Origin: a virus
Length of the DNA stretch: 64,000 nt
Strand: one strand, 5' to 3'
IMG/VR virus record: IMGVR_UViG_3300030107_002332
Below are positions 6,001 through 46,176 of the stretch, piece by piece. Under the pieces are notes generated by a model. That model ran no database searches, was not told where the DNA came from, and saw only the letters and a list, made by a program, of their open reading frames with translations. A program made the translations under genes and the position numbers. Every line of letters starts with the position of its first letter. Within the stretch, counting starts at the first letter, position 1.

Positions 6001-7275
6001 GTTATCACGTAATTCTAAAGTCTGATATGAATTAGCAACAGTAGATCCAGATAGGTTTAAGAAACCATATACGTTACTAACTTTAGACCAATTACCCATT
6101 TCAAATGGGATAATAACGTTCTGTGCTGACTTTGTATCTCTTGGTTTTGCTAAGTCAACATAAGTTGGTGATAATGTTTTAACTCTATATCCTTTAACAT
6201 ATGCTGCACCTGCTCCAAATTCTACTGCATACTTAGTTTCCGAAGCTGTATCGCCCTGTGCTGTAGTACCACCAATATCATAAACACCATTGTTAAACCC
6301 ATCATCAAGGTTCTCTCTAAGGTTGATAGCAAAGTCTTTTACAACATAATCACCAGACTCTTCATAAGTTCTGATAGCAAGAGACTTTTCTAACTCATCA
6401 TATGCACTACGATCTAAAAGTTTCTCAACTTTACTTGCGTTAATTCTTAATAGCTCAATGAAGTTCTTATCAGCATCATCTGTAAGAAGTTTCTTAATAA
6501 GCTTGGTTGTTATTCTGAACCTGTGAGAACCAGGAGCAGCATAATTAGATGTTCCTGCAGCGTTATCATTGAGGCTAAGGTCATCTTCTGGGGTAATGAT
6601 GGATTCTTGTATGTCAAGTCCAACTCTATAGGAGGGGTTACTTCCATATTGATCAAGGAGAATATATTGATAAGGTACGTCTACAAAGAAACCTCTGATA
6701 TAGTATACACCAGTTTGCACGTATGCAACAGATCCAATTTGTAGAGCTGCGGTTGGAAGAAGTTGAGCAAATGGAGACCCAATTTCAATCAGTGTAGTAC
6801 CAAACGTAATGGCAGACGTGGTAACTAACTGTTCATTATTTGAAAATGTCTTTTGAGTATTTGCTGTACCACCAGACTCAGTATACTTAACATAAAGGGT
6901 AATATAACCTTTCTCTGAATCGGTAGATGAAATACTATATAATACTTTTGCTTTAACTCCTGAAGTCAAACCAGTAATAATTTTACCAGTTAACTGAGAA
7001 CGATACAATTCAATATCAGCACCCAAGAATGACTCTTGAAGCATGATACAATCAACGTTCAGGTCATATCCTATCTGACCAGGAATAACCATCGCACCAT
7101 CTTTAAATAAGTGCGAACCAATATTTTCAACCTGATTCTGTTGAATCGATTGTAGTGTTGTAAGTTCCCTTGCCTGTATCGGGAAGCCAGGTCTAAAAAG
7201 TACTCGATAAAAGTTCTTACTCTTATCAAAGTCGTCGTAATACGGGGTTACATTTAAGTTAGTATTTTGTGCCAT
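58..7275 (-). CDS. VrlC-like (DUF4815) large virion/baseplate-associated structural protein, 2405 aa
   Basis: N-terminus MAQNTNLNVTPYYDDFD..KNFYRVLFRPGFPIQARELTTLQS is typical of this family; WYDPLAQSF and LFKSQNASTW motifs; lies directly after gp8 as in T4-like cyanophages. Confidence 0.8.
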   Translation of the reverse strand: MAQNTNLNVTPYYDDFDKSKNFYRVLFRPGFPIQARELTTLQSIQQNQVENIGSHLFKDGAMVIPGQIGYDLNVDCIMLQESFLGADIELYRSQLTGKIITGLTSGVKAKVLYSISSTDSEKGYITLYVKYTESGGTANTQKTFSNNEQLVTTSAITFGTTLIEIGSPFAQLLPTAALQIGSVAYVQTGVYYIRGFFVDVPYQYILLDQYGSNPSYRVGLDIQESIITPEDDLSLNDNAAGTSNYAAPGSHRFRITTKLIKKLLTDDADKNFIELLRINASKVEKLLDRSAYDELEKSLAIRTYEESGDYVVKDFAINLRENLDDGFNNGVYDIGGTTAQGDTASETKYAVEFGAGAAYVKGYRVKTLSPTYVDLAKPRDTKSAQNVIIPFEMGNWSKVSNVYGFLNLSGSTVANSYQTLELRDNFSVTAGDAQGQLIGYARTAAFEHMADPDTTFGTADDQYKLNIFDVQMFTVMTLSSTETISQGSLLVGANTGARGYIVNATTNSTDLLLYQVEGTFEKGEMLTLDGQNLDTIANFHEYKYSDTRQFVAKDESTSATEFTADLILEDIIRLEGDTFTYDATGGSEKITGLNSNFALDLRPGDRIYFNATQYVDVDYVTISNLAGTGIPAIFNYLNQTVNVTPGAGAAAPSAGTYTTLVRYRGKLNDVQNADLLSEMPKKYIKSISDESSVVRRTFDAQTVASNSVSITLPANEQFESITDENYTFTVLAGTNSTHPVGDQILIDTTNSGNVGYTTFTSADRTTIQIVNLTNITSIKVTATISKNVTARKTKSGQQMVVLKVNKTTADLDKQNYGLTYSNLYGTRIQDRDLSLGLVDAYRLHAVYESNDNNDPVIPSVVLVEPTFFATGSIVTGKTSKARAKVVDFASGSLTLSLVYIEGSFVAGESITGVNSSGTAISAIINDSAGSIVAGSKVVTDNYFLEVGQTGFMYDISKIVRKKGVSTPIRKLKIVLDYYTHSATGDYFGGQSYLDTPYADIPFYQFKFLADYLDFRPGAKNLFSGTGTVASPGYVNCSTFDFKSRVFTTGGSPIATIFDIPKLNSSFRADFDWYLPRVDKCFITPDGEFQIIKGKSEEAPQEPDDLVDGMLLAVINHKPYGFDPELDAAIVRSDHKRYTMKDIGQLERRLDQVEYYTSLNMLETDTFNTKVLDSSGKDRLKNGFIVDDFSDHGKSATDHEDFAASVDFQEGECRPGHYTTNIPLQINTTLSTNYQQTGPIITLPYVEKKVIDQPYASRVENVNPFNVFTYIGRVTLLPSSDDWVDTERLPARVQQIEGDFEATASELNVDQNGFAPVQWRAWRTVWSADTTISGRTVHNRHWLEEDRGRSPHPQVWGGRGMRRINRVETIESNRIQTRSGIRTRVIPRIERTSMGDSVVSSTVIPWIRSRNLEVDIARLKPRTQFYTFFDGRKVDVYVSPKLIELIKDPTVDTRTNSTPFVVGETVTGLTSGLKFKVANPNDFYQFSPYDDSTLPSSYASTTEYLNIDTDALAKQAVGQYYGNMQVGEVLEGTSGAKAVVKDRRLISDRFGKMKASFFIPRPGVDTNPRWRTGTRTLRFTTSDVDSRVGGVVASSAEAEYESNGTLNRVRENILAVRNAEVVRDTVSETVTVRTTRTETRQIGWYDPLAQSFILDEKGGVFLTSVDVYFNTKDTNIPVSMQIRTMENGYPTKSILPFSDVTIEPTNIQISETGSVATKFTFQAPVYIPQSIEHCFVLLSDSNEYQVWISRMGELDITGDRTISDQPYAGVLFKSQNASTWTADQFEDLKFAINRADFTTTGTSTVVLNNAKLDIGNGGVLNLRNDAIETVVPSIDLLMNTALTYTVGSRVYQKTTLAEGTIRKITTGAGGAALLTVDDISGTFAQGSATGGVITNRLVSSKTLATMVVSGASGDFTVGETITGSTSAAPTAEVVTWVSGTNTLTLKYVSTNFTATSETITGGLSSVTATVASITYSGDATAGGTPTIQDAYPQSTPTFAAANRKIRISHSNHCMHSTSNNVTLSGVISEVSDTYLTAAISASDTSIAVNDASAFHKVINGVAIGSTNVGYIMIDNEIMSYSAISNDNKTITVHERGLNGTTGVSHVDESVVKCYNLDGIPLTEINKIHTAIQNPTLDSYELVTTSIGRLGIRAGGSNIFATQNIQYETLVPQIERMLLPQTEITARANVISGTSIGDGSSVTEASFANDGVFSDIILSEDNQFAAPALICSEINESSELSGAKSFRMDLQLKSLEPNISPVIDTDRLSAILVTNRINSPTATDSALKSVGDEHDAVYITRVANLANPSGSIKLMFAGYRPPNTTIKVLYRVRPVGSSSSIDTYGFSYFPTTGATIPATTDRKIYYDYEYEASGLNFDQYQIKILFVSSNQAYVPIIKDLRAIALAV

Positions 7276-14362: not shown

Positions 14363-14370
14363 TATTTATA
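14363..14370 (-). promoter_or_regulatory. T4-type late promoter TATAAATA
   Basis: exact consensus (plus strand tatttata) overlapping the giant gene's stop, about 20 nt upstream of the 14342 start. Confidence 0.75.
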
Positions 14371-17300
14371 AAGGTGTCTCAGGGTCAACTGGTTCTTCAC
14401 CATATAGACTTAGATCAGGAGCAGTCCAATCATCAGGAACTGATGTTTCAACTGCGATAGTTGGATTCGCATATCCAGATCCAGGATTACTAACTTCAAC
14501 ACCACCAACTCCAACAAGAGCTCGTATAGCACCCTCAAATCCAGATATAGAGTCAATTCTTACAGTTGGTCTGGTAGTATATCCAGATCCACCTGAGGTA
14601 ACTTGTACATCCTTAAGTGTGCCAGAAGTTAGATTTGCGTTTGCAATCGCACCTGAACCAAATACAGATCCAAGATAATCGAAGGTAATTAGTGAGTTAG
14701 AGGATTCAATAACAGCAACTTCTCTATCTGAAGTCTCACCTTGGATGTCAATAAAGTCACCAGGTTCGACTGGAGGTACAACCTCAGCAGCGTCAACGTC
14801 TGCTTCAGAACCAACGTAGGAGAATGCAACGAATGTTGATCCCACACGAGGAATTTCAGAGAATAGAATTCTTGAACCAACAATCTCAAATCCAATTCCA
14901 GGTTCCTGTATAACACCATTCAGTGAAACGATGATGTTATTTTCTGGACGTATGGTAGAAGATTGTACACCCTCAGTTAGCGTTAGTGAGTAGAATACGT
15001 CATTACGCTTGAGGTTAAATGACTGACGTAAGGAGTCGAACTCGAATGAAATATCATCCAACTGTCTCAACTTACCTACGTAGAATCCTGTGAATGATGC
15101 TCCTAAATCTGGTGCCTCTTGGAATTGAATCTCATCAGAGAACGCTGTATATGCGTTAGATGCACCTGGAGGTTGTAGAATACCATTAATGAATACAAGT
15201 AGATGTCCTGCAGGATCTGGTAGATATGGAGTACCATTTTGCTGAGTTAACTTGAAGTTTGTAGTAGTTCCATCAAATCCCTTGAATGAACGCTTAACAC
15301 GTGCCTTGAGACTTACTATATCTTCAATAACTGAAGCATATCCGTCTGGACCTTTAATAGAATCCTTAGGATCAAAGGTACCTTTGATACTTGAAAGATA
15401 AAGTCTTCTATTAACACCAACTGTTCTAATGTCCTGAACAACTGCAGCTGCAGCACCAGCAGTAGTAACCTTAGTGTTAATACTTGCGTAACCAACTGGG
15501 TTAGATAAACCAGCACCATAGTCACCTACAACATCACCGTTAGTAATGGTTCCTTGATACTCTTGCATATAGATGAAACTATTATCAAGATCAACTGCAG
15601 TAATAATACCGTAAGTATTCTGGTCTTGTATACCAGATACAACCTTATAAAGTCTGTTACCAACAGTGAAGTTGTTAAGACCACTAAGGACTGTAACACC
15701 AAGTCTTATGTAACCATTAGATGCGATTCTTGCACCAACACCTATATCAAGTCCAGCATACTTGACAACATCAAGATACTGTCTGGAAGATTCAGGATAA
15801 ACAACAGCAGTAGTTTCAAATGTACCTGTAAGAGTTGCGGTATCAACTGTTAGAGTACCACCAGTATTATCTAATGTAGCAGCCTCTCTTCTAAGGAATC
15901 CAGTAGGAGTTGCGGTAGCACCTGAAGTATATCCCTTAAATGGAACATTATCTTCAAATTCACCCTTAAGGTCGATAACATGAATTCTACTTTCTATAGC
16001 ACTAATCTGAGCAGTTGTGGAGTTTTCAGCACCAACAACATTATCAGTGATAGCCCAAGGTCCAGCAGTTACCTTAACATCAAGATACTTGTAGTTGGCA
16101 TCTGACCAGAAACCATATACAACACCAGTGATTGAAGGTGCACCTTGCTTGGCAACAGTCTCACCCATAGTGTAAGGACCATCAGTGATATCACCATCAA
16201 TTCTAAATCTTTGGAACACCTGTACGATCTTACCTTCATTTAAGGTAAGATTTTCAAGTTCACCGTATGTGTTACTTAATAAACCATACATGTAATCAGC
16301 ATTCTGTATACCACCACCAACACCTTGAGGAATTGATCTTGTTCCATATGTCTTAGTTGGTAGAGAAACACCATTTACACTAATGTAATTAGTATAAGAT
16401 GAATCAACAGTTAATTGCTGACGAATAATATCGAGACAGTATCTAACTATAGCACTTGCTGAATCTGCATCATACCATGCAGCAGCTTCATCATAGAATG
16501 CTTTATAGAAACCAGAATTAGGTGATGGAGAAGTTAGACCATTATTAAGTGCCTGAGACATATAAGTCTCCATCAAATCTAAAGCATAATTCTTAATATT
16601 ATACTCAGCGTCAGAATAGAAGATCTTAGCATCTTGAGATTGATATGGATCTAAGGCATTCTTATTGAGTTTAGCACCCCAGACATAAAGTCCATCACTA
16701 TTATTACCAGCGTATGTTTGAGCACCAGAGGCATTCTTAACATAAACTTGTGCTCTCATTTCTGCGAAACCGAAGGAGAATGTTAGAGTAATATATGCTC
16801 TATACCATCCATCTCCAAGAGGTACAACACCGTATGCATCACCAGTTACACCATTTTGAGGTGTGAATAATGTTCCAACTACACCTGTGTCAAGTGCAAC
16901 ATCAAAGAATGCATTCTGAACAGCAGCAGTGCCATAGTTCAGTGATAACATTACACGAGCGTTATCATATTCACCCTTCTTAAGGAAGACGGAATATGTG
17001 TATTGCTGTGTAGGAGATGTTCCAGAAGCACCTTCGTCAAATCTTTGATTGTTTGCGTCCCACTTGATAGTATCATCATCAAATGTATCATAAGCAGATA
17101 GATTATAAACTCTATGAATTGTATGATCTGCGTTAGTAGAAGAAGCAATTAATTTATCAGCAGTTAATGTTCCATCAGGAGCAAGTAGAGCATCATCAGT
17201 AAATGAAACCTCAGTACCAGTCCAATTAATTGAGAATTGCTCTGGGTTAGTGAGTAGGTTAGTACCAGCAAGTTGACCACTTACATTAGAAGTGATAAGT

Positions 17301-20300
17301 CTTGCACTACCAAGTGTCTTAACATTAGAAACACTATCGTACCACTTGTAACTATTACCAATACCAGCAGGATCAATAGTTGCAGTTGCACCAGAATCGT
17401 TACCTGTTAATACATCATAATCCTTCCATTCTGTACCAGTAACAGTACTGCATACGAAGAATTCTGTATCGATATTATATTCACGAACTATTGCAGTACC
17501 ACCACCATCAGATGTAACTGTTTCACCAACTTTAAAGTTACCAGTTATATCACCAATAGCAATATTACGAGCAACTGAATTCTTAGTCATATCAGTTGTG
17601 ATAATATCATGAACGGTATCATCTACAAGTTGATCAATGAATGTATTATAAGTCCAAGCACCAGCACCAAACTGTGAATTAACTAGAGTTGTAATCTCCT
17701 CTTTATAGTAATTTCTGTTGTAAAGTAAGTTCTTAGCAGCACCCCGTCCCTCCATCTTAGCAGGAGCAAGAATATCAACTGCTAAATCAGTTAATTCTTC
17801 TAATCTACGAACTACATCTTCAATTGCTACTGGAGATAAAGAATCTGTATAAGGAGCTTCATCTGTATGTTGAGCAACATATTGTTGAGCAGTTGAAGTT
17901 CCATTAAGAGCAACTAAACGATTTCTAAGTGCATGCTCACCAATAATCTTAATTTGTTCAATACCATAAACTGTTGCTAATAGTTCAGTTTCAACATGAT
18001 TTAAGTTTCCTGCGGAAGTTAAGTAGTATTCCATAGCAGCAACGGTACTATTATTACCACCTGTCTGAAGGTCAGAAATAATACCAAGAATGATTAACTT
18101 AATATCTCTTTGACACTTACCTTCACCTAAAGCACCCTCTGGATAAGTATGTGCATTATAGTTTACACTGTTAAGTACATAAGTGAACTCAGCAGTTATT
18201 AATCCTGTAATCTCCTCTGCAATATATTTTCTATTGAAGTAAAGTCTATCAGCAGCGATAGCATAATCATTATCTGTAGGAGCAATAATATCATTAACAG
18301 ATGTAACTAAAGTATCGATAGCAGACTTAACGTTTGCACATCCACCACCATCTTGAGTAATACCCCAATCACCAACAATAATATCATCAGTATTATCATA
18401 AGTTAAATCACCAGTAATTGCTTGCTTCATGTAATGAGCAAGACGATTATGTGCATAAACTGACTGGAATACTTGTAATCTGATGTGTAATAGAACATCA
18501 TTAGTACCAAGATAGAACTTACCAACATTAGTACTATTCAAGTTACCACCATCTTCAATATCTTTACAGAACTCTTCAAGGAGTAATGTTAAGTCAGTCT
18601 TACATTGTAAAGTACCATCTTGAGTACCACCTACGTTACGAGGCATTTCAAGTACAAGATCTGGATATAATGTAAGCATATCGTGAGATGTCTTATCTAC
18701 GATAGGTCCAGTATTTGCACGAATTAATGCAGCAGCATCTCTAAATCTGTTGCGTGTAGTCTCATCAATTTGATTAGTAACAATGATATCATTAGTAGCA
18801 TCATGATAAGAAATTGGGAATGGAACCTCATAGTATGCACTAACTTTACCACCAAGGAAATCATGCTTAGGAGTTAACTTAGTAACAGTTGCAAGATGAT
18901 CTACAGCAGGTGATAGATTTGCTTGAGTGACAGTATCAACCAAGATATCCATCAAGTTATCAATAGTTGTGTATACATCAGTACAATCTGCCCAACTGTA
19001 ATCTAATACTGAAACAGCATTATTTGCAATAGAAACTAACTGATGAGTATTCTTAACTTTCTTAACAGCACCATACTTAGCAGAAACAAATGTATGTGCA
19101 GACTGTGGTAAGAAGGCTACAGCGTTAGTTGTAGCACTTACGAATGTATGAGTGTAATCTCCACCAGAACTAATTACTGCTCTCTTGATTCCATTAGCAG
19201 TTGCAGACTGGAATGCATGAGACATAACGTTAGTTGATGGTACTGCATCAAGAACCTGAACGTCAAATGTATTTGTAGTAACTCCAGAAATAGTAACCCA
19301 CTTACCACTAACAGGATCACTCTTTCTTGGATAAGTCTTAGTTACAGTATTACCATCAAGAGCACAAGTAAATGATAGTGAATTATCAGCGATCTTGACT
19401 TTCTCACCGTTAACGAATCCATGATTAGCAACTGTGATTGTCATAACACCTGTAGTTGGGTTATATGCAGCATTAGTTGCTGTAAAGTCGCTATTAGCAC
19501 TAACGAATGTGTGAGCAGTTGTGTTAGAAGATGTACCAACATTAACTGTAATTGTGTTACCTGTTACAGCAGTAATGTTAACAGCATCGTTGTATGCTGG
19601 ATCATCAGCAGATGCACCACCCTGACCGTTTGCACGAGGATAAGTATGGTTAGAACCATGACTATCTTGAGCACAAGTAAAGGTTAATGAATTATTAGCA
19701 ATTCTTATTGATGTACCAACTGTAAGATTATGGTCACCAATTGTTAGAACTAATAAACCAGAAGCAGGAGTAAAGCTTGCAGCAGATACTTCATGACCGA
19801 TAATAGGTGAAGAACCAACATTAACTGTAATTACACCAGTCTTTCTTCTAAGTCCCTTTGTAGCAAATGACTTGAATGTATGAGTTGTTGTATCAGAAGA
19901 AATACCAAAGTTAACATCAAATGTATTAGTTGCAACGTTGGATATTTGCATCCACTTATTCTGATAAGGATCAGTTGCTCTTGGATATGAATGATCTGTT
20001 TGATTTCCATCTAAAGAACATGTCATAGTTAAAGCATTATCAACAATCATTACCCAATCACCGTTAGACCATCCATGATTAGCAAGAGTGATTGTTGCAG
20101 CACCTGTTGCTGGAGTGTATGAAACGTTAGTTGGTGTATGATGTGTATGTCCTACATGCTTAACAGGAATAGACTTAAGATTACCATAAGGATCTGTTGA
20201 ACGAGGATAAGTCTTATTAGAAGATCCTCCATCCATTGTGCAATTAAATGTTAATCCATTATTTGCAACTGTAATACTTGATCCAACACTGATACCATGA

Positions 20301-23300
20301 CCACTACCAATAGTTAGAGTCATATCACCAGTATAAGCATCATAAGTTGCTGCAGAAGGTGTAAATGTCTGGTTAGTACCAGCAGGATTTACATTAACTG
20401 TAATTGTTCCAGTTTGTCTCTTAACACCACCAGAAGTAGCAGATACAAATGTATGAGCAGTTATGTTAGAAGAAATACCAACATTAACTTCAAATGTATC
20501 AGCAGTGATAGCAAAGATATCCAACCATCTATTATAAGTTGGATCAGTTACTCTTGGATAAGCATGGTTAGAACCATTACTGTCTTGAGCACAAGTAAAG
20601 GTTATTGCATCAGCATCAAACTTAACTCTATCACCAGCAACTAATCCATGTGAAGCAGATGTAATTCTTAAAATACCAGTTGTAGGTTCATAGTTAGCAG
20701 TTGAAGGAGTAAGACTTGAAGTACCAACAGAAGCAACAGGTATCGCTTTTGCAGAGAACTCATCTTTATTAGTACGAGGATAAGTCTTATTAGCTTGATT
20801 GTTATCCATTGCACAAGTGAATGTCAATGAATTATCATCAATAGTAATACTATCATCGTCTGTTATATCATGTGATCCAATAGTTAATACTAAGTTACCA
20901 GTAGCAGGATCATATGTTGCAGCAGTTGGAGTATATGGTTGATCAATAGTATCACCAAGAGACTTACCAATATCAACAGTAAATGTATTTGTTGTTGCCT
21001 TTCTTACTCTTAGAGCAGAAGTATAAGCAGGATCTGTGACACGAGGATATGCATGATCTGTTCTCTTACCATCGATATGACATCTGAAGGTTAATGAACC
21101 AGCATCAAGTTTAATTGCATCACCCATCTTATGAATACCATTTGCCTTAGCAGATACAAATGTATGGGTATAGTCACCACCAGTACTTACTACAGATCTG
21201 GTAATACATCCAGTAGTAGCAGATACAAATGCGTGTGTTGTAGTATTAGTTGGGGATGTTCCTTGTAGAACATTGATAGTAAATGTATTTGTTGTTACAG
21301 CAGTAATTGGAACAAATCTGTTACTAATTGGGTCTGTAGATCTTGGATAAGCATGGTTTGTTGCATTACTATCCTCAGCACAAGTGAATGTTACTCCACC
21401 ATCAGCAATCTTAATATGCTCTCCAACCTTGAATCCATGATTATTAACAGTCAATACCATGTTACCAGTGGATGCTGTATATGAAACAGTTGATGGAGTA
21501 TAAGTGTTATTTGCGTCTATAAATGTATGATCGTAGTTACCACCAACAATTAGACCACCAGTCTTAGCAGATACAAATGCGTGTGTTGTAGTATTAGAAG
21601 AAGTATTAACATTCAGGGTAATAGTTCCATCCTGAACCTTGATACCATTAGATGTAGCACTTACATAAGTGTGTGCAAAATCACCAAATCCAGTAATACC
21701 AACATTAACATCAAATGTGTTAGTTGTGGAAGCAACAATAGGAGTCCATTGGTTAGCAACTGGGTCGGTAGCACGAGGATAAGTATGGTTTGTTGCATTA
21801 CTATCTCTTGTGCAAGTAAAGGTTAATGAATCAGCATCAAACTTAACTTGACTATTTGCCTTCATAACACCATTAGTTGTGGCAGATATGAACGCATGAG
21901 TTGATTGATCATTTGCAACACCAATATTAACATCGAATGTATTGGTTGTTACATTTTGAACAGTCAACCACTTGAGGTATGAAGGATCAGTAGCACGAGG
22001 ATATGAATGTTGTGATTCATGATTATCCTTATTGCAACTGAATGTTAAAGCACCTTCTTTAATTAAAATTCTATCTCCATTAGTATATCCATGACTTGAT
22101 TTTGTCAAAGTCAGAACACCTGTTGCTGGTACATATACAGCACCAGTTGGTGTAATCTCTGAAGCAGCAGTCAAACCATGACCATTGCTAGTGATTTGTA
22201 GAACACCTGTAGTAGGAGCATAAGTTGCACCTGTAGCAGTCTTATTGGAAGTACCAACAGCAGAGATCTCGATAGGAGCGTCATATGCTCTATCTCTCTT
22301 TTGCTTGATGCAGTTTGTAACAGCAGATACAAATGCATGAGTAGAAGTATTAGTAGAAGGTATAGTCTGTAATACTTGTACTGTAAATGTGTTTGTAGTT
22401 ACAGCAGAAACTTTCAACCACTTACCGCTAACTGGATCAGTTGATCTTGGGTAAGTATGGTTAGTTTGGTTATTATCTAACTGACATGTAAATGTAAGTG
22501 AATTATCATCTATCTTAATCCAATCACCAACTCTAACACCGTGAGAGTTAACTGTGAATACTAAGAGACCTGTTGTACCACTATATGTCGCAGTAGATGG
22601 TGTGAACTCATCTATAAATGGTCTTGGATAAGAGTGGTTAGATGCATTGCTATCTTCAGCACATGTGAATGTTAATGCTCTATCAACTAATCTAACTGTT
22701 TGACCAACGTTTAAATTATGTGTTCCAACTGTCAATACTAAGTTACCATTTGCAGGAGTATATGCTGCATTGGTCATATCATGCTTCACAGTAGGTGACT
22801 TACCTACATCAATACTAATAGATCCATCTTGCTTAACGATACCATTAGGATATGCAGACTTAAATGTATGAGCAGACTTATCTGGAGATACACCAACATT
22901 AACAGTAAATGTCTTATCTGTTAGAGAATTAATTCTCAACCATCTTCTATAGAATGGATCTGTAGATCTTGGATAAGCATGATCAGTAGCGTTATTATCT
23001 TTCTCACATGTAAATGTTAGAGACTTCTCAGCAATTCTGATCTTATCACCAACAGAATAACCGTGCTTATCAGATAGAACACTGTTATTTCTTGCACTTA
23101 CGAATGTATGAGTATAGTCACCACCAGTTGTCACAACTGCTCTTGTTACACAGTTAGCAGCAGCAGAAACGAAACTATGAGTTGTAGTATTTGTTGAAGG
23201 TACTACATCAAGAACTTGGATAGTGAATGTATTTGTAGTTACTGATTGAATATCAATAAACTTACCGCTAATTGGGTCAGTAGTTCTTGGATAGGTATGA

Positions 23301-26300
23301 TTAGTAGCATTGTTATCCTTACCACATGTAAATGTTAATGAGTTGTCAGCAATCTTAATCTTCTGTCCAGCTAACATTCCATGACCTGCAACAGTAAATG
23401 CTAATAAACCGTTAGTTGGGTTGTAAGTAACAGAAGTTGGAGTTAATGTTCCTGCTTTTGGTACAAATGTATGAGTACCAGCAGTTGCATCATTAGCAGT
23501 TCCAACATTGACTGTAATTGATGTTGAGGTTACAGCAGTAATTGTTGTTGCAGCATCATATACAGGGTCAGTAGTACGAGGATATTTGTGCTCAGTAGCA
23601 TTACTATCCTTAGTACATGTGAATGTTAAGGATGCAGGTTCAAATCTAACAGATGTACCAACAGTCAAACTATGACTACCGATAGTCATAACCATATCAC
23701 CTGTAGTAGGAGTATAGGTGACTGCTGATGGGTTAAAGGATACTAAAGGTGATGCACCAACATTAACATCAAATGTATTAGTTGTTACATTTGCAATGTT
23801 TATAAAGTCACCACTTAGAGGATCAGATGATCTTGGATAAGGGTGAAGAGTAGCATTATCATCCATATCACAAGTAAATGTGATTGCACCATCTTCAATC
23901 TTAACCTTATCACCAAGAACCATTCCATGATTAGGAACAGTTAATGTCATTATACCTGTTCTTGCAACATATGAAGCAAGTGTAGGAGTAAGGTTAGTAC
24001 CAGAAGTAATTGTTAAATCGCCTGTTGTAGGAGTATAACTTGCATTAGTTGCTGTACTATGAACTCCATCACTTACAATCTCAACTGAATCATTATAGAT
24101 TGGATCTGTTGTTCTTGGATAAGTCTTATACTCAGTAGTACCACCCATAGAGCACAAATACTTCAGAGAGTTATTTGCAATCTTAACATTGGTTCCTACT
24201 TCTAAACTATGATCTCCAATACCTAACTTCAACCAACCCGTCTCAGGATCATAAGTAGAGGATGTTGGAGTGAAACTCTTAATTGGTGATGGACCAACAT
24301 TAACATTAAATGTATTAGTTGTTACACCAGAGACTTCTAAGTATCCAGAACTTGCTTCGTCGGATATTCTGGGATAGGTGTGTTCAGACCTATCTTGGTC
24401 CATACTACACGTAAAAGTGAGTGAGTCATCAACAAGTTTGATTCTATCGCCATTTGAAAGTCCATGACTATTGCTCGTAATAGTTAATACACCAGTATTC
24501 GCTACGTATGCTGCATTAGACGCTGTAAGAGACGAGGCACCATTAATACCATGAGAAGACTTGGTTAATGTTAATTCACCTGTTGCAGGGTCATATACTG
24601 CTGATGTAGGAGTAATGGAAGTAAGTGAATTTGTTGTGGAATCAGTGATAGTAGTATCAGTTGTCTGAGTTAAACCATGATCACCTTGAACTTCCCAAAG
24701 AGTGTTGGTTCCAATGTACTGAACCATTTCCTGAGTCTTCTTAAATGCCCAAAGACTTTCAGTAACTTCACTCTTAATTTCTTTTAATTGGATAGGATTA
24801 GCAGTTCTATCAACATAGAATGCAGATGCATCCCAGATATGACTGTTACTACCGTTGCGAATATCATCTACAACACTCTTCAATACATCAACAATATCAT
24901 CAGCACAGTTAATAGATCCACCCTTAACAGTGAAGTTAGGGAATCTCTTCTTCATTAACCATACAACTTCTTGAGCAATAAAGTCTAAGTTTGCAAGTAC
25001 TAAATCGCCAGCGTTGATATATCTCTGAGTATTCTTATTAAATCCATTGTTGGCAATACCAACATTAACAGTAAGAGTTGTCCCTGAAACCGCAGTGATA
25101 GCAAGGGTTGTGTCGTATGCAGGGTCAGTTACTCTTGGATATGTATGAGAGGTTTGATGATTATCCTTAGAACAAGTGAAGGATAACTTATTAGCACCAA
25201 TCTTAAGAGTATCACTTGTTGTGAAACTATGAGAACCAATAGTTAATACCAAGTCTCCTGTATTAGGATCATATGTTGCATCAGTTACATCCTTCTGTAC
25301 ACTATTAGCAGTTATTGTAATAGCATTAACTGCAGTACTACCATTATAGATGTGCTTACCAGCAACATCTCTTACAGTTGCAAGAATAGCATCATTATTG
25401 AAGAATTCTCCTTCAGTAAATCCTTCTACACCAGACCAATCATCAATATAATTAACACCATCATTACCATCACAGTGTAATAGTAGTTTTGTATTAGCAT
25501 CACCTTGGAATATACCAGCAACAGGAGTAAATGCACCAGTATAACGGTTAGTTGTAGAAACTCTTACCTCATCAACATGACCAACAAATCCATTAGCACC
25601 ATTCCAATCAGCACCAATTCTTATTGGTTTAGCAACATAGGTTGTACTGTCAGTACCAGTTCCAGCTTCAACACCATTAATGTAGATCTTACCAGTTGTG
25701 CTGGACTTAACATATGCAATATGAGTCCATGTATTAGCAGAAATCGTTGTTGCACCTGAAGTTACAAGATCAGAATTATTAACATTTACACGAACTTGAC
25801 CTGCCTCTAAGTATAATCTGAAGGCAACTTCATTAGCACTACTTGCTCTTGTATCGAATATATCAGCAGTACCACTTACTGAAGCAGTAGCAGGACGGAT
25901 ATACATCTCAATAGTAAATGCACCAGATCCAAATGCTATTTCATCAGTAGATGCATTAACAATATAATCAGCAGCAGCAAATTCTAAAGATGCTGTTCCA
26001 AACTTCTTCTGTGCGGTATCGATAGCAGCAGCATTTTCAAAGGTAAAGTCAAAGTAATCTTCACCATTTGCTTTACATCTACCAATCTTACCAAGATAAA
26101 CAATATTACGTGCTTGATTAAATCCAATAACTTCAGCTTTAGTATCTCTGGTTCTAATTACTTGTCCAGTATTAAAGAATCCATCACCAATTCTATTAGT
26201 GAAACTTAATTTTCTAACTCTTCCATCTTCTCCAGCAATAAAATCACCATTACTATTACCATATTCAATCTTATAATTACGGATATTCTCATTTTCTACA

Positions 26301-29300
26301 AGAGTTCCTACTGCATTATCATAAGGAATAGTATAGTTATTGATACGCTCATTAGAAGGGAATTTAGAATCAAATGCAGTAGCATTGTCTGTAAAGTCAA
26401 CAATACTAATCTGAGACTTAGAAATATCGTCTAATACAACGTTTGGATAAGTCTGAGAGGTAATTCTGTTGAATAGTAGACCAAAGAATGATGAACCTTC
26501 AGATATATTAACTTGACCAATAAATTCATTAGTTGTAGGATCTTGATATGCTGCAGTTGCAGTAACAGTAGCAACAACACCAGATGATGCACCAAGAATA
26601 ACATCATTTAATTGAATATCAAATAAACCAGGAGTTGATTGATAAGTACCAGCAGTCTTACTTAGGGTTAATGTATTAGTAACGCTAATGTCTGTACCGT
26701 AAATTGGAGTATTCTCTTGTACAGATTGAGCAGTAGTACCAAGTTGTCCTCTGGTAACACCTATAGTTGTAGATGATGATCCATCAGTAATACTATCAAC
26801 TCTGAATATTTCAGAACCAAACTGATAATTCTTAGTAGCAGTAAATGTTCCAGCTGGAACAGGACCAGGATCGCCAGTTAGAGGAACTACTTCAAATGAT
26901 ACAGTAGAAAGACCAATAGTATAACGAACCTTAGCTACTGGTGTTTCAGCACCAGATTCAAGGTTAATTTGTTCAACCTTTGCAGTATCTCCAGTTAAGT
27001 TAGTGATCTGCTCACCAAATGTGAATAGACCAATATTTGATACAGCAGTATTTGTTGCTAAGTTAGCAGAGAATCCAGTAGCACTAACAGTACATAATTC
27101 ACCAACAATAAAGGTTCCTTCAATAATATAACCATTAATTGTAGTACCAACAACTGTTGTTACAGTTAACTTTGCACCAGATGATATACCAGTTAATACG
27201 TTACCTAATGATGGGTAAATACCACTCTGATTAGTAAATGTAAGTGCAACAGTAGACTTCTGAGAAATTGTTATGTTTGCATACTTAACACTTGCTGGAG
27301 GTTGTGGTGGTTCGGAGAATACAATAGAGTCTTGCTGAATACTAAATGAAGTCTTAGGATTCTGTACAACACCATTCAATACAATCATTAACTGGTTTGC
27401 GTTTGCAACAACATTACCACCATCAACAGTTAGAGGGAATGAGATTCTCTCACCGTCAAATAAGTTAGAAATATCATCGACACGTTGTACAACAGAGGTC
27501 AAAATGTTCTCTGAAGATGTCAGTCTCTTCTGCCTGAATAGAACTTCAGTATTATTGAAGTCAGAGTAAATTGGTTCAACAAGAGCAAAGTTTTGAATAT
27601 TAGGAACGATTGATTCCTGAGCAAGTTCAACAGACTTAGTTAACTGGAAGAATGTCTCTTTGTTAGGAACAAATCCATACTCATTAAGGTTTAATTCACC
27701 AAATACTTTAAATGATGCAGGGTGAACGTTCTTAATAAGGATCTCTTTCCAATCGCTGATAGAAACAGCAGATTTAACAGCATAAGAGAAGTCCTGATAG
27801 TAGTAAGAGTCTTGAATCTTTTGAATAATTTCGGAAGGTTTACCAACATCATCGATAAACTGACCTGTTGTTTTGGTAATAGAACCAATTTCAAGAACAC
27901 CTTTAGCGATCTTCAGATCACTGATAGTACCTGAAGACTTAGAAATAACACCAGTAACTTTTTCATTTTCTGTAAATGAACCAGTGTAATCAACAATCTT
28001 AAGAATTCGAGGTCCAACCTGCCAACCAGAGTTAGTAGAAACATAACCTTGAGCAGTAGCATTTTCAAGTGAATCACCTTGATATATCAATTCTCCTTCT
28101 AAGAAAGTAGAAGTGATAACGTTAGCAGTAGCAGCACCACCAAATGATTCAGTTAATACACTTTGACGACCTTCACCAGCGTTAACGAAGGAAAGAGCAT
28201 CACCAAGAGCAGCGTTAGATGCAGTAATAGCAAGTTTTAACTGATCTGGTTCCAATGAGTTTGCTGTACCAGCAATAGCAAAGTAAGTAGTAGAAGCATT
28301 TAATCTACCAGTTGCACCAGCAGCAAGTGGGAAATCAGCACCATCTCCAGTATCAGTTACAGTAACTGTTACTTCAGAACCATTTACAATACCATGAGGA
28401 TAAGCAAATTGAAGTAATCCTAAGTCAAGGTTTACAACATAGTTGAATGAAGACTTAAGATTAATAGTTGGTGTAGATGAATAACCAGCACCAGGATCTT
28501 TAACAAAGATTTGATCTAATCGACCATTCTTGATAGTTGCTTCAGCAACAGCACCAGTACCACCACCACCTGTAATTACAACAGCAGGAGGTAAGGAATA
28601 ACCAGAACCTGGGTCAGTAACTGTAATACTTGAAAGTATACTTGTAGATGTTAACTGAGCGTTAATCGGGAAGGTAATCTCAGGACGTAAAGTATAGTCA
28701 TGAGGATAATCATATCCAAAGTTATTATTCTTAAGTTTCTTGATTTTTCCGACATTTGTACCCTTAGTAAAGATAGATGCCCCTGTACCAGCAGAAGGAA
28801 TAACAACTACTAATTCAGCACCAGATCCAGTTAAACCAGATCCAAGAATACCTGAAATTGAGTTAATATCAATAGTTGCAGTAGTATATCCTTTACCTGG
28901 ATCAATAACATCAACTTTTTGAATTTGACCTGGTATAGTAGTACCTTCATCATCAGTGCCATCAGCAACAGTAATAGAAACTAATCCACCTTCTCCATCA
29001 CCAGCAATAGGTACGTTATTGTATTCTCCAACAGCATATTCAGTACCTGGAGCATTAATTTGAACTCTTTCAATCTTTCTTGTTGATACAATACCTGTAA
29101 CAACTGGTAATTTAGTATAGAATCCACCAGAGTTAACAATACGGATATTATTAATAGAACCAACAGCTTTTAGTGAACTTGTACTATAACTTGTCCTACT
29201 TACATCTGCAGAACCTTCTGGCTCATTTTGTAGAGGGAATTTGAATATATCAGGTCCAGTAGTAATAGTCTGACCAGCAGTAGAACTAATTTGGAATGTA

Positions 29301-32300
29301 CCCTTATATGGAGAATCTACAACATCTAAGTAACTACCAGGAATTACAGGAGAATCATCCCCAGTTCTTGATGGGTCAAAGTAATATGAAATATTTGTAA
29401 CAACGCTTTGATCAACTTTCAGTTTAACTGTAGGTGTAGGTTGTCCTTGACCAGTTACACCAGGAGTACCAATTCTTTCAATAGAGTTGAATGAATATTC
29501 CAACTTATAAAGGTTATCCTTAGCAAATGATAGGTTACCCCCAACCAATGAAGAGTGACTTAGGTCAAACAGATACTGGTGACCATAATACATCTTCAAC
29601 ACAGGAGACTTAACAAATATACTAACATTACCAGGAGTGCTTGTCTCAGGATCAGTTATTGCTGCTTGAGGTAATTTGTAAGTAAATTCAAGTGAACTTA
29701 CAACAGTATCAACAGGGAATGCACCATCATACTCATCATATACAACACCACCAGAAGTACGTTCTGGGTTACCATCAATATAAAGCATTTCACCTGCATT
29801 GAGGTAATGCTTAGTAGCAGTAATTACATAAACTTCATCACTATTAGCAACTGCAGTTACCTGAAGAATCTTAGTAAGGTTTGCAACTAAAGTAATCTTT
29901 AGAACACCAGTTAAATTAACTATTGTTGCTTGAGAATAATCAGCATTATAAGAAATATCACCTGAATTGATTGTAACAACAGATCCAACAATATATGGTG
30001 AAGAACCAGAAACTTCATCAATTCTTATAGAGTAATCTGCATCAGCATATGGTTTGAATGTTGCAAATGTGTGTAGATTATTAGCTCCACCAACTTCTAA
30101 AGGATAACTTGAAAGAGGAATGATAAAGGTTCCAGGAGTTTGATTAACAACTTGTGCAAAAGTATATCCTATTATCTCATTAATATCATTAGGAATTGGT
30201 CCAACAATGTTATAAGTAGACTGCTCACTAAACTGAACTGTGCTTAATTGACCAGTATTAAGATCATCTGACCAAAGATTATTATTAACAGCAACATATA
30301 TCTTATTGTTATCATTATCAACTCTAATGATATAACCGCTATTTTTAAATGTAGATCCTGTATAAAGTTGTAATTTAGCACCAACTGTGAAATTAAATGC
30401 CTGATTAACAGTAAGAATCTGAATATTATCAATCTTAACAGTATCAGTAACTTTAAAGTAATATCTGTCTTTAACTACAGCAGATACCTTAAGTTTCTGT
30501 GAACCTGGAGAAGGAACAGTAGCAGTTCTTGAACCCCAAATATCCTGAGTATAAGTTAGAGTCTCAGTATCTTGAGACATCGTAGTTGTTGTATCGTCAA
30601 AGTCAAGAGTCTGTAAACCTGCATCACCTAAACTATATCCAGTAGCAGAAACAGTTATAGCAGAACCAGTAACAGGAGTTACAGCAGTTCTAACAAATCC
30701 TAATTTAGTATTAGTTCTTTCACTATAAGTTCCAATTCTTCCAGATTCAGCATTCTTATCAACCTTAATACCCCAACCAACATAATCAATATTATCATAA
30801 CGATTCAAGTAAGAAGTAAACCATGCATCATCTACCCAATCAAATGTCTGACTATAACTTGCAGTTGGAGGTAATGTTACAACATCAGTAGGAACTGTAG
30901 GAGTTACAAATCTATTCCTTAATTTAATGTTATCAATGTAGAATTGACCCTGCTTAGATTGAGCAAAATCAGTTGCTCCACTACCAAAACCAATTTGGTT
31001 ACCAAAGTATATGTTTTTAGTACCAAGAGCAGTATTTGATAATGTACCAGTAATAACTGCAATACCATTAATATATGCCTTGAACTCATTACCATTCTTA
31101 GTTAATGCTACAAACTGCCAAGAGTTATCAGCATACATGTTGGTCTGAGATGATGACTGACCAGAACCGCTTATAAGTTGTGTTGTGTTATTAGTAATTA
31201 CTAATTGTAACTCTCCACTACCATTATCATAACCTAACCATAGACCACCAGTAGCATCTCTTGCTCCACCAATACCACATAAGGTTTGAGCACCTTGAGA
31301 TAAAGTCTGTGATTCACTACCATTCTTATAGATCATGAACTCTAAAGTCCAATCACCAGCAAGAGTCTCTTTTAATGTAGTACCTGGAACACTTAAGTAA
31401 GAATTAACCCAAGTAGAATTAGAACCTGCAGGATTATAACCATAGATCTTAGCAAGGTTACCTGTATAGGTTATTGCATTAGTAGCACCAACAGATGTTA
31501 AAACATGATGACCTGTTATATCAACTTGCTCATTATTAGCAAAATCGTAGATAAATTCATTTCTATTCCACTGAGTTTGACCAAATACATGAACATCACC
31601 TGATTCATCAACATCAAGTGCATGTGCAGTTACACCCTCAATATTATTAATATTGAAATTATTAGTTGTATGATTCTTAATCTTACCATCATAACCAATC
31701 TTAACTGTATCTACAGTTGTTTGAGTATTTGTATTATTCTTTCTTGTAAATGCAACGTTTAAATCACCAAATAAATCAATTTCAGATGAAGTTGTTACAT
31801 GAACTTCTCTACCTGGAGCAAGATAACGATAATTCCAGATTAAAGTACCATCAGTAGAATTAACCTTACCAACCCAGAAACTATCTCTAGTTGTATCATC
31901 ACTCTTCATTCTGCAAGAAGCAGTAAGATAAATTTCCTTAAATTCATCAATACAAAGTGTAGAATCTAAGAATGAGTAAGTTGCATTACTAAATTCCTTA
32001 ATCCATTGAATTTCAATAACACTTGTACCAATAGTTGCTTTACCTACACACTGATTAATATCCTGAGCAGTGTCTGTTGCTGATACTTCCATCGTGAAGT
32101 ATACATCAGTACCATCAATGATTAAATCAGTAATTTTCTCATTTCCAGTAGCAGAAGCTAACTTTCTCTTAACTGAGAAATTACCAGTAGTATCAATAGA
32201 TGCAATAAATGCATCAAAAGGTGCAGCAGAGTTAGTATTAGTATAACCACCAATAATATAACGAGTATCTGAATATTTCTGAATTGCAGTTACATTATCA

Positions 32301-35300
32301 GAACGAGTTGCACCAGATATACCAGCATATGCTTTTTGGAAACTTAATGTTGCACTAAGTCCATTTTCTGCCTGAACATACTTACAAAGAATGATATCAG
32401 GGTTATATGCATCGAGTAGAGAACTATTGGGTTTATTATTACCAACTACCCAAATATTATCTCCATCTACATACAATCTCTCAAATTCTACGTATTTTAG
32501 ACCAGCTGTACTCTCTAAAGTTTTTTGCCACTCTTTAACACCTGTAGCAGATAACTTCGCTACAAATCCTACTGTATTACCATCAGCATCTAAAGTTTTA
32601 CCACAAGTGAATACTTCTTTCTTAATATTAACCTTACAGTCATTAATCTTGACATAATTATTATTTTCAATCTTAGAAACATAATAATCAGCCTTCTTGT
32701 ATATCTGAGGATGACTTAAAATAACACGAGGATTGGTAGTATACCCAGATCCAGAGTTAGTAATGTTAACAGTATCAATAGCACCAACAGAACTAACAAC
32801 CGCTTGTAAAGCACCTTGGGTTCCGTCGCCATCGATGATAATTGTTGGAGGAATTTCTTCATTATATCCAGATCCTGTCTGACTAATGACTATTTGCTCA
32901 ATACCCTTGAATTGACGAACTTTAAATGTTTTGTTCGTGTTATCCATGATAGGTGTATAATCAATAAACACACTATCGCCAGCTATCAAGTTATGAGGTA
33001 CATCTGTCTTTAATGTACCGTAGTTACTTCCACTTACATTCTCAAAACCATAAGTTGAAACTGACTCACCTTTAATACGTGAAACACGAGCAGATACACC
33101 ATCTCCATCAGTATCTGTATTATCAAATACCAGTCTATCATTGACCTGATAGTTAATACCTGGGTTTTCAACTGTAAATCCAGTTACAGAAGCATCTTCA
33201 AACTTAGTAATAGTCTCAACTTCAATATCAACCTTGGAGTCAAACTTAACTGTAGGGAAGTAATCGAATAGTTGTAATGGTGCTTCTTCAAACAACTGAG
33301 TAGGATTAGCAGTCTCCTCAGCATCAATTACACCATCTCTATTAACGTCTTCTGGATCGAATAAGAGGATTTCTCCTGCTTCAGTAGTCAATGCATTAGT
33401 AGAAGCATTTGGAGTCCTTGTAACGTCAATATCAACGTTCTCATAAGGGTCTCTGTAACGTACAACACCTGCAGGAATGTTCTGTTGTGTTGCAGCATCA
33501 ACAAGGTTCCATTTATCAACAACTGAGTTGAAACTTGGACCTAAAACATAAGGGAATACTGGGTTACCATCTTCTGTAGAATCAATAGTAACAAAATAAC
33601 AATATCTACCATCAGTAAAGTCTGGTGTCTTACAGAAACGACCATTATACTGATCTAAATCACCTAAACCGAAGACATACTCATAATCTTCAACAAAGTT
33701 ACCAGCAGCTTCTGAATTTAGTAAAGGACCAGCAGTTCTTGCTGGATATGGGTTAGTTGTTGCATCATAAACTAAATTTGTCTTCAATCTATAAGAAGTA
33801 TTCAGTTTTGTAATAGAAGATGCTTGGTTAGTTGGGTCAGAGAAACCATAAGGACCATAAATTGGGTTACCATCAAACGCCCATCCAATGATAGGTGAGT
33901 GATTTAATTGAGTTTCTTGCTCCTTAATATTACCACTAGCATTTTCAAATAAGTTATCACCAAGAATATATCTTAATTTCTGAGGGTTGGATAAGTGAGC
34001 ATACTCACCACCATATTGGTTATTAAATCCTTCAAATACAGTACCTTTAGCAGAGTCAAATGTTGATGTTGCTTGAAGGTTATAAGTCCATTGGAATACA
34101 TTAGGTGTAAATGTAGCACCTTGACCAACAGATGTTAGGTTAATAATCGTAGTACCTTGAACATAGTTAATACCCTTATTAACAATAGTGATACCAGTAA
34201 CTCTACCAGCATTTTCACCATCAGTATCAATAGTAGCACGAGCAACAGCACCAAATCCAGCACCCTGAACAGAAACTTCAGGTGCGGTAGTATATCCAGA
34301 TCCAGCAGAAATAATAGCGATAGAAATGATTCTACCATTAGTTACAATTGCCTGAGCAACTGCACCACTACCAGAACTTAGTGTGACAGCAGGATTTGAA
34401 GTGTATGAAGCACCACCATCTGTTATAGCAATACTTTGAATTGGACCACGAACAGATGCAGTACCTTCAGCACCAGTTCCTCCACCACCAACAATAGTAA
34501 TTGAAGGCTGGGAAGTATATCCAGAACCACCTTGGTTGATCAGTATACTAGATACAACACCTTTAGTGATAATAGCAGTAGCTGCTGCTCCTGCTCCGCC
34601 ACCACCTACAATAGAGACCAAAGGTGAGGAAGTATACCCAGAACCCCCTGCAGTGACTGTGACTTCAGAGATAGAACCATCAACAGTTACATTTGCAGTT
34701 GCACCTGAACCGCTACCACCAGAAATAGTAATAGTTGGAGGTGAAGCAGCATCATATCCAGCACCAGCATTAGTGATGTTAATTCCAGTTATAGCACCGA
34801 AAGTTTTACTTAATTTTGACTTATATGCCCATATTGATACACCATTAACCCAAGTACCAACAGGACCAGAATCAATAGTATTCTTAGTCGAAATTGTAGT
34901 AGGTACTTTAGGAAATCTGTTTAATTTACGTTGGTTTCCTGGAAGAAGAGCAGATCCTGGGAAAGGACCAATCTTATAGTTAGGAATACCTGTAGAAGCA
35001 ACGTAAGTATGAGTAGTATCGAAGAATGAGTTTTGTACGTTAGTAGTATAAGAACCAATAGCATTTAAAACTGCACTATTATCTGACTTACCTTTATTAA
35101 GGTCAACAGATACAAGAATATTACCTTGAGGTATTACAGTAGCAGGTTGGGGAAGTTGATACTGGAAAGTATACTCGGAATCCCTTGATGTGACTAAGAA
35201 AGTTCCGTTATAGATTATTGGGTTAGCACCATATACAGTTACCTGATCTCCAACTAATAATCCATGAGGATTAGCACAAGTAAGAGTTGCAGATTGGTCA

Positions 35301-44937: not shown

Positions 44938-45094
44938 CTGTCTTTTTAAAGGTCAATGTATCATCATTTATTAGTTCATAATCTAATTCATCACCAACTC
45001 TCCAACCTAATTCTTCTATTAAGGTATCTGGTATAGTAATGACTGTTTCTCCGAATTCATTTTCCTCAAGAGAAACGGTAAATCTGTGTGACAT
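44930..45094 (-). CDS. small AbrB/SpoVT-like protein, 54 aa (not in ORF track)
   Basis: own translation MSHRFTVSLEENEFGETVITIPDTLIEELGWRVGDELDYELINDDTLTFKKTDE; ITIP..+.E.LG+..GD pattern. Confidence 0.65.
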   Translation of the reverse strand: MSHRFTVSLEENEFGETVITIPDTLIEELGWRVGDELDYELINDDTLTFKKTDE

Positions 45095-45097
45095 ATC

Positions 45098-45313
45098 TCA
45101 TAGGCGATTAACTTGACTGTTTCGCTTGGGATGCGTGTTACACCAGTTCTCCCATGCTTTTACAACGTCTTTAACATCATTTATAATACCAGCACTTACA
45201 CAATAGTCAGCACACTCGTACATACGAGGATCTAAGTACCCTTCGCTCCTGAGCAATTGCTCTAAGATCCATGTGCGATTGTCTTGTCTGTCTTGGCGAA
45301 ACTCTGGTGGCAT
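45098..45313 (-). CDS. hypothetical protein
   Basis: ORF track; first gene of the late block. Confidence 0.7.
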   Translation of the reverse strand: MPPEFRQDRQDNRTWILEQLLRSEGYLDPRMYECADYCVSAGIINDVKDVVKAWENWCNTHPKRNSQVNRL

Positions 45314-45515
45314 TTTTTACCTCGGAAAAATTTTTAAAATAATTTATATATCAATAGCGTTTGGGAACCTTTGTAGGTTAGGGTCTCTATCTTTTTTAAT
45401 ATAAGGGGCGGGATAGGGCCGGATCAACGGGCGAGATCCCTTGGTATAACTGTCATCTCGACTGTTTTCTTTATACTTAGTGAGTTAATTAACTGTCTTG
45501 TGTGTTACATAGGCA

Positions 45516-45545
45516 ATAAAAAAGGGAGTGCTTGTTAACACTCCC
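45516..45545 (-). terminator. Rho-independent terminator closing the small-ORF block
   Basis: gggagtg/cactccc stem (45524-45530 / 45539-45545) followed on the minus strand by TTTTTTATT. Confidence 0.75.
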
Positions 45546-45554
45546 ATTCTAACA

Positions 45555-45785
45555 TTATGCTGCTAAATTGTCAAGAACTGTCTGGGAGACTTCAGAGACA
45601 TTGTTAACACCTTGCAACCACTTATTAATGTGCCTAGATGTTGTTTTGCTCCAAAATCTTTCAGTTCTAACATAACCTTTGCTTGGCAAATATGCTGCAA
45701 CTGGTGTTCTATAACTGAAGAAGATTTGTGTTCCGTCGTTGATAGAAACCTCTGTCTGATTTGCTGCAATGGGTGTTAGTTTCAT
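45555..45785 (-). CDS. hypothetical early protein
   Basis: ORF with FFSYRTPVAA...SKTTSRHINKWL motif, lying between an upstream element and a terminator. Confidence 0.8.
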   Translation of the reverse strand: MKLTPIAANQTEVSINDGTQIFFSYRTPVAAYLPSKGYVRTERFWSKTTSRHINKWLQGVNNVSEVSQTVLDNLAA

Positions 45786-45817
45786 AAGGATTAATCCCCT
45801 GATTGATTTATATTAAT

Positions 45818-45877
45818 ATAATACATGATTTCCATGTACTTATCAACAACCCTTGTGCCACTTTGTTGACTGTCACA
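45818..45877 (-). promoter_or_regulatory. early-type element copy 1
   Basis: TGTGCCACT-ttgttg-ACTGTCACA (45854-45877), 30 bp from TATTAT -10 box (45818-45823). Confidence 0.75.
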
Positions 45878-45911
45878 CCTTATGTGTTACTTAGTGGCAT
45901 TACAGTTTGTG

Positions 45912-46112
45912 TTACTTACCCTGTGCATTTGTGTCCTTAATTGTTAGATACCATCCAATCGATTTGATATAATCAAAGCAAGAATGTTTAGGCAATTGTT
46001 TATACCTATCTCCCCTACGGTTTCTAACACCGTCCATGTACAATTCTAAGTCAGTAACTGAATAGAATGTCCCATGTAATTTGCCGTCTTCGTCTTCAAT
46101 TAGATACTGCAT
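45912..46112 (-). CDS. hypothetical protein
   Basis: ORF track; directly downstream of a sigma70-like promoter. Confidence 0.7.
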   Translation of the reverse strand: MQYLIEDEDGKLHGTFYSVTDLELYMDGVRNRRGDRYKQLPKHSCFDYIKSIGWYLTIKDTNAQGK

Positions 46113-46146
46113 CTTTCTTAGGGTTTGTGTTAACCTCTACAGGGTT

Positions 46147-46176
46147 ATTATACCATAATTTGTTATAATCTGTCAA
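46147..46176 (-). promoter_or_regulatory. host-type sigma70 promoter TTGACA-N18-TATAAT with extended -10
   Basis: plus strand tgtcaa 46171-46176 and attata 46147-46152; TG at the extended -10 position. Confidence 0.75.

What the first reader, a model, noticed from the sequence alone, without database searches (positions are those of the whole stretch)
19004..24616. Recursively nested (Russian-doll) repeat tree: 18 domains inserted inside one another in one polypeptide
The ~100-aa repeat splits into an opening (Y.P.TG.L.LT...HG), a core (KI....LTFTC..D.N...H.YPR.TDP), a mid strand (NTF.VNVG.S) and a closing (H.FVSA..NG+). Read N to C, the pieces are not tandem but balance like brackets: 18 openings, 18 cores, 18 closings. 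My parse is a{b{c{d{e{f{g}}}, h{i, j{k}}, l}}, m{n, o{p, q{r}}}}, with nesting depth 7 and 7 uninterrupted leaf domains (g,i,k,l,n,p,r; e.g. g = 23449-23144, 102 aa). Domain a opens at 24616 (ITPTSAVYDPATGELTLTKSSHG), resumes only at 21127 (MGDAIKL..FRC..YPR) and closes near 19050-19004. Insertions reuse about five loops: around HG, after YPR, after the I..V strand, after VNVG.S and after H.FVSA. The whole tree is itself inserted in a helical module between TDTTITDS and DYSWADCTDV, a segment that is contiguous in the sister module (WGITQDGGGCANV). This implies a branched, antler-like multivalent appendage that grew by repeated in-frame self-insertion, and a folding problem in which parent domains complete only after up to ~1,800 residues. 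I know of no description of this architecture.
Basis: seen in the sequence. Interest (0 to 1): 0.95.

Follow-up and report, generated by a model that had tools for sequence, protein, structure and literature searches.

The report
Self-nested barrel tree in cyanophage gp7
A 7,938-residue baseplate protein of a marine cyanobacterial virus holds 18 copies of one small beta-barrel domain inserted into each other's loops seven levels deep, giving a branched protein instead of a chain; relatives carry from 1 to 30 copies in different branching patterns, and a similar build has been described in cyanobacterial RNA polymerase, but I found no paper describing it for a virus particle.

The parts
14366..38182 (-). 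Giant gp7-type baseplate wedge protein, 7,938 aa, host of the tree
   Evidence: between gp25/gp6 and gp9-10/gp8-like genes; 66% identical over 7,045 aa to P-SSM4 gp7 and 69% to Syn19_088, T4-GC969
19010..24616 (-). Whole nested tree, root barrel a (own pieces aa 4523-4551, 5686-5749, 6376-6391)
   Evidence: root not modelled in 3D
21128..24529 (-). Barrel b and its subtree, inserted at site A (loop around HG) of a
21179..24274 (-). Barrel c (subtype 2), site D of b; three children d, h, l
22829..24058 (-). Barrel d, site C of c; carries e{f{g}}, which is absent in L005 and L058 where d is uninterrupted
23072..23992 (-). Barrels e (site A of d) and f (23737-23123, site D of e)
23138..23446 (-). 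Leaf g, site E of f, depth 7
21542..22783 (-). Subtree h{i,j{k}}: h (site D of c), leaf i 22606-22298, j 22243-21632, leaf k 22156-21857
   Evidence: AF2 pLDDT 88.7, pTM 0.77; barrel matches over model ranges 60-165, 211-312 and 1-419
21197..21502 (-). Leaf l, site E of c; carries a 108-aa child after YPR in L005 and L058
19058..20935 (-). Subtree m{n,o{p,q{r}}}: m (site D of a), leaf n 20713-20414, o 20365-19118, leaf p 20140-19841, q 19795-19169, leaf r 19486-19181
   Evidence: AF2 pLDDT 82.7, pTM 0.56; barrel matches over 73-177, 265-367, 380-595, 189-612 and 1-630
25052..25357 (-). 19th copy z, circularly permuted: the closing His strand precedes the opening
   Evidence: 102-aa gap at aa 4275-4376 against S-P4, S-TIM4 and P-SSM4; not modelled
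24635..25024 (-). Host helical module 1, part before the tree
18908..19003 (-). Host helical module 1, last helix after the tree
18290..18751 (-). Sister helical module 2; empty here, holds a second small tree at the same loop in L005, L024, L043, L058, L060
25553..25948 (-). LamG / concanavalin A-like domain just upstream of z
   Evidence: Pfam PF13385 best stretch aa 4079-4210, E 1.4e-25 for the fragment scanned

Best explanation
The region is a branched tree of 18 homologous ~105-residue beta-barrels of FCCH / endosialidase-barrel type, in one chain. Each child starts and ends close together and sits in one of five surface loops of its parent (shown in sequence; supported in 3D by predicted models for 10 nodes). 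At site C the parent's hairpin strands run straight into the child's first and last strands, which suggests a stiff two-stranded stalk (inferred from DSSP). The tree hangs from one loop of a helical module of gp7 and so most likely projects from the baseplate as an accessory, non-catalytic outer structure (inferred; T4 has six gp7 per baseplate, own knowledge, which would give about 108 barrels per virion). It most likely serves as extra surface for weak, repeated contacts with the host cell envelope before the fibres trigger contraction (inferred, about 0.4; see rivals). It changes by recombination between matching positions of two copies, which moves a loop together with its child or subtree and so keeps the brackets balanced (inferred, about 0.65). 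The confidence given is for the architecture plus the exposed accessory role, not for ligand binding.
Confidence: 0.75

Rival explanations
1. Same nested fold, but the barrels bind nothing: the tree is a spacer, shield or drag-changing mass, or has simply accumulated because recombination between copies is frequent and outer loops tolerate it.
For: Size ranges from 1 to 30 barrels among relatives, and viable phages have one. Adaptive mutations in gp7 fell outside the barrels. A LamG lectin-type domain next door could do the binding.
Against: Cys41, Tyr-Pro-Arg 52-54, Asp57, His22 and His90 are 94-100% conserved over 649 nodes, and up to 10 kb of gene is kept in frame; conservation could however be structural.
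Confidence: 0.4
2. The pieces do not pair with their bracket partners in the virion but swap with neighbours in the chain or between the six gp7 copies, forming an interlocked lattice.
For: All pieces of one class are homologous, so swapping is sterically possible; the root and the b branch were not modelled.
Against: Tandem and shuffled orders score far lower; halves match by subtype; models close parents on bracket partners; linkers between stacked closing strands are only a few residues; orthologues gain or lose whole brackets.
Confidence: 0.07
3. The conserved Cys, His and Asp form a metal site or cross-link in each barrel, so the tree is a metal-stabilised or metal-carrying scaffold (for example iron, which is scarce in the open ocean).
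For: One Cys per barrel (99%), two His (96%, 94%) and Asp44 (89%) are conserved.
Against: No geometry was tested; the residues lie in different segments; the FCCH-type matches give no hint of a metal.
Confidence: 0.15
4. New nodes arise by independent insertion of single barrels at tolerant loops, and the site-subtype rule comes from steric selection alone, not from copying loop and child together.
For: Sites are natural surface loops; in-window copies are old and show no conversion tract.
Against: Same-site similarity persists within subtype 1 alone (+0.022, null max 0.007); whole subtrees recur; no mobile-element machinery is evident.
Confidence: 0.25

Closest known systems
Si3 insertion of cyanobacterial RNA polymerase beta' (RpoC2), SBHM / hybrid-motif domains (PMC10895346; PMC13114784)
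   Same: One small beta domain family inserted recursively into itself; parents built from distant pieces, leaves continuous; eight domains, described as six levels and as the most complex case in an ECOD-wide survey of 48,551 insertions.
   Different: Different domain family; intracellular enzyme; eight domains, 630-690 aa. Here 18 domains and depth 7 (up to 30 and depth 11 in relatives; level counting may differ between studies), up to three children per node in this protein, five reusable loops, and a topology that differs from phage to phage.
E1 FCCH domain (PF16190), including the outward-facing FCCH domain of siphovirus tail tube proteins (PF08813; 9JLF; PMC13576161)
   Different: No Pfam hit; 13-19% identity; extra Cys...YPR hairpin; known cases are single copies.
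Beta-barrel domain of phage endosialidases (PF12195; phi92, 4HIZ)
   Different: Below the Pfam cut-off; no propeller or catalytic part here; binding residues not compared.
T4 gp7 and its annotated cyanophage counterparts (P-SSM4 gp7, T4-GC397 / GC969; PHROG 701, 18802)
   Same: Gene order gp25-gp6-gp7-gp9/10-gp8; 63-69% identity to cultured cyanophage proteins over 6,000-7,000 aa.
   Different: The records name the protein but not the nested tree; T4 gp7 is about 1,000 aa (own knowledge).
Russian-doll domain order of tail sheath proteins (T4 gp18) and flagellins (own knowledge)
   Same: Domains inserted in domains in a structural protein.
   Different: Linear nesting of three or four unlike domains; no branching and no self-insertion.

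Membership tests
Recursive self-insertion architecture (Si3 type) | Homologous domains interrupted by complete copies of the same family, more than two levels deep | tested here: met
Recursive self-insertion architecture (Si3 type) | Interrupted parents fold as compact domains from distant pieces | tested here: met
   In predicted models only, for m, o, q, h; not for a-f
Si3 / SBHM (hybrid-motif) family itself | Sandwich-barrel hybrid motif fold | tested here: inconclusive
   Top structural rows are FCCH and RIFT-type barrels; the hybrid motif is not prominent, but an unlisted family is not excluded
Si3 / SBHM (hybrid-motif) family itself | Inserted in the trigger loop of RNA polymerase beta' | tested here: not met
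   Host is a phage baseplate protein
E1 FCCH domain PF16190 | Six-stranded closed antiparallel barrel | tested here: met
E1 FCCH domain PF16190 | Pfam score above the gathering threshold | tested here: not met
   No PF16190 hit for seven leaves at E up to 10
Endosialidase beta-barrel PF12195 | Pfam score above the gathering threshold | tested here: not met
   One of seven leaves, E 0.082
Endosialidase beta-barrel PF12195 | Binds sialic acid or another glycan | not testable with these tools
   Needs a binding assay
Cyanomyophage gp7-type baseplate wedge protein | Position after gp25 and gp6, before gp9/10 and gp8; full-length homology to annotated gp7 | tested here: met
Cyanomyophage gp7-type baseplate wedge protein | Present in the virion | not testable with these tools
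   Shown for cluster T4-GC969 in S-SM1 (PMC3037559), not for this phage

The most novel reading that the evidence does not exclude
Cyanomyophages build a dendritic appendage from a single polypeptide by a self-propagating insertion grammar (one barrel, five slots, two subtypes), and reshuffle its branching by recombination as a way to vary host-surface contacts: a tunable, tree-shaped adhesin with up to 30 barrels and 11 levels.
Probability: 0.3. Interest if true: 0.92.

Novelty: new variant of a known kind. Interest (0 to 1): 0.78.

Why it matters
Repeat proteins are nearly always tandem chains. This one is a branched tree, deeper and larger than the deepest published case I found, and natural relatives supply a graded series from 1 to 30 nodes in cultured and uncultured phages. 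That series makes two questions directly testable: how a domain folds when its last strand arrives up to 1,870 residues after its first, and how insertion architectures evolve. The barrel is also a natural five-slot branching scaffold for protein design. It points to an unannotated, highly variable structure on the baseplate of some of the most abundant ocean viruses.

Tried and rejected
Sequence search of the leaf profile against PDB: no hit below E 0.27. Foldseek of the six-domain model against PDB: only whole-chain noise, TM at most 0.14; against BFVD: mainly cyanophage structural proteins. Pfam on the C-terminal half of the protein, tree included: nothing above cut-off. Profile comparison of the leaf with two other FCCH-looking stretches of gp7: only the HG...GD motif, probability 5-7%, so a common origin is not shown. 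Literature searches for antler-like cyanophage baseplates, nested phage repeats or gp7 structure found no description; subscription journals are largely missing from that library. A low jump cost in the memoryless parser made noise in the flanks; the test was repeated on the tree alone. Best-match tracing of single nodes between distant orthologues was ambiguous for the b branch, so I rely on alignment indels. Assembly artefact rejected.

Full report
Setting. The finding lies in ORF 14366..38182 on the minus strand, 7,938 aa. Upstream are a PAAR protein, gp25 and gp6; downstream are a gp9/10-like connector, a wedge subunit and gp8. The protein is 63-69% identical over 6,000-7,000 residues to the gene at the same place in P-SSM4 (annotated gp7), P-SSM7, Syn19, S-P4, S-TIM4 and S-RIM8. 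All 324 phage records with a match to the region are named Synechococcus or Prochlorococcus phages, cyanophages or marine viruses. The source is therefore a T4-like marine cyanomyophage (Kyanoviridae by its relatives). Cluster T4-GC969, to which the Syn19 and S-P4 orthologues belong, was found in purified S-SM1 virions (PMC3037559).

Check of the observation. I built a 103-column profile from 209 non-redundant uninterrupted copies taken from related loci and the window, and a second profile for a subtype with an IG.H motif, trained without the window. Test one: a jumping alignment that may move from any column to any column and keeps no memory. On aa 4519-6396 it found 18 openings, and all 14 resumptions began where the top-of-stack domain had stopped; the stack ended empty; 0 of 20,000 order shuffles did as well. 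Test two: a CYK parser that allows a complete domain inside any loop. It scored 3253, against 2445 for tandem repeats only and at most 3053 for 37 shuffles of the fragment order. Test three: after splicing, every node has 100-110 residues of its own, and the subtype score of the front and back part agrees in sign in all 18. The only setting-dependent placement is l (child of b, of c); c fits the pattern of f{g} and q{r}, where the last short strand follows the child.

Relatives. S-RIM8 has one uninterrupted barrel at the same junction of the helical module. Syn19 has a tree of 4, S-P4 of 8 and P-SSM4 of 11. Environmental contigs reach 30 nodes and depth 11, with 29 topologies among 36 sequences, some cut by contig ends. 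L005 and L058 share most of the window's tree but lack e{f{g}} (about 310 aa) and carry an extra 108-aa barrel directly after YPR in l; L010, L013 and L030 lack n. The barrel tree also occurs in other structural genes (S-RIM44, S-SSM7) and six times over as one 4-node subtree in P0001. The profile finds 703 clusters among 1.84 billion proteins and a single GTDB contig, probably mis-binned phage DNA.

How it grows (inferred). Insertions fall in five loops (columns 18-29, 54-60, 66-75, 83-89, 93-100). Site D takes subtype 2 in 170 of 207 cases, the other four take subtype 1 in 340 of 365; these counts include orthologous nodes. Within one protein, children at the same site are more alike than children at different sites, also within subtype 1. 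A double crossover or gene conversion between matching positions of two copies would move a loop with its child or subtree and keep the brackets balanced, whereas a single crossover would unbalance them. Recombination within a tail gene was inferred in S-TIM4 evolution (PMC6224464). No recent event is visible in this window: copies are mostly 60-80% identical in DNA.

What it does (inferred). The tree sits in one loop of a helical module, is dispensable down to one barrel, and is made of a fold used on the outside of siphovirus tails (PMC13576161). An accessory, exposed, non-catalytic projection is the likeliest reading. Weak multivalent binding to the host envelope is plausible from the endosialidase-barrel likeness and the neighbouring LamG domain, but untested. 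Host-adaptation mutations in S-TIM4 and Syn19 gp7 all lie outside the barrels, which gives no support, though only about one was expected there. An inert spacer or neutral accretion remains about as likely as binding.

Comparison with what is known. Recursive insertion of one domain family into itself is established for Si3 of cyanobacterial RNA polymerase: eight SBHM domains, four of them built from distant pieces in the crystal structure (PMC10895346), described as six levels and as the most complex case in an ECOD-wide survey (PMC13114784). I owe this lead to earlier notes of the scan and checked it in both papers. The phage tree works like Si3 in architecture but is not a member of that family: different host protein, and best fold matches elsewhere. 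I found no paper on the phage case, within a library that lacks most subscription journals. The scan has noted the same architecture in several other genomes.

Verdict. A new variant of a known kind: larger, deeper, branched and variable, in a virion protein. Interest 0.78.

Noticed in passing
window 25357-25052 (-): A 19th barrel copy, circularly permuted (closing His strand first, ends in the D loop); the same permutant recurs in L003, L013, L014, L024, L050, L057, L077.
   Followed up: partly
window 25024-24635, 18751-18290, 18286-17747 (-): Three homologous helical modules, each with a Cys-x-x-Asp helix motif (aa 4426, 6527, 6690). The loop that holds the tree in module 1 holds a second small tree in module 2 of other phages.
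   Followed up: partly
window about 37300-36300, 34800-34100, 32900-32700, 29200-28450, 14650-14450 (-): A second repeat family in the same protein, Gly-rich units of about 40-50 aa with a GSGY motif. Token order is mostly tandem but some blocks start or end mid-unit, so some nesting is possible.
   Followed up: no
window 35365-35093, 29872-29603, about 33000 and 28400 (-): Four further stretches of gp7 with an H-x-L-x-x-G-D/E motif that look like FCCH-type barrels without the Cys...YPR hairpin; profile comparison of two of them with the leaf was weak.
   Followed up: partly
window 41528-40950 and 40920-40636 (-): A heme oxygenase gene and a small SET-domain gene sit inside the baseplate cluster, between the PAAR gene and gp25.
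   Followed up: no
window 44938-47653: About 2.7 kb without an ORF of 80 aa or more, followed by a sparse stretch to 51278; no tRNA genes. Probably small ORFs; not examined.
   Followed up: no
P0001 (4,764 aa): Six separate copies of the same 4-node, depth-4 barrel subtree in one protein; S-RIM44 has the same subtree once in a structural gene outside gp7.
   Followed up: partly
L093:2661-2969: The only GTDB match is a Red Sea archaeal MAG contig, 67% identical to a leaf; probably mis-binned cyanophage DNA.
   Followed up: no
L089 (S-TIM4 ORF101, aa 3906 and 3914): The two high-frequency host-adaptation mutations in S-TIM4 gp7 (70% and 80%) map to window aa 3897 and 3905, a conserved stretch upstream of the LamG domain, not to the barrels.
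   Followed up: partly
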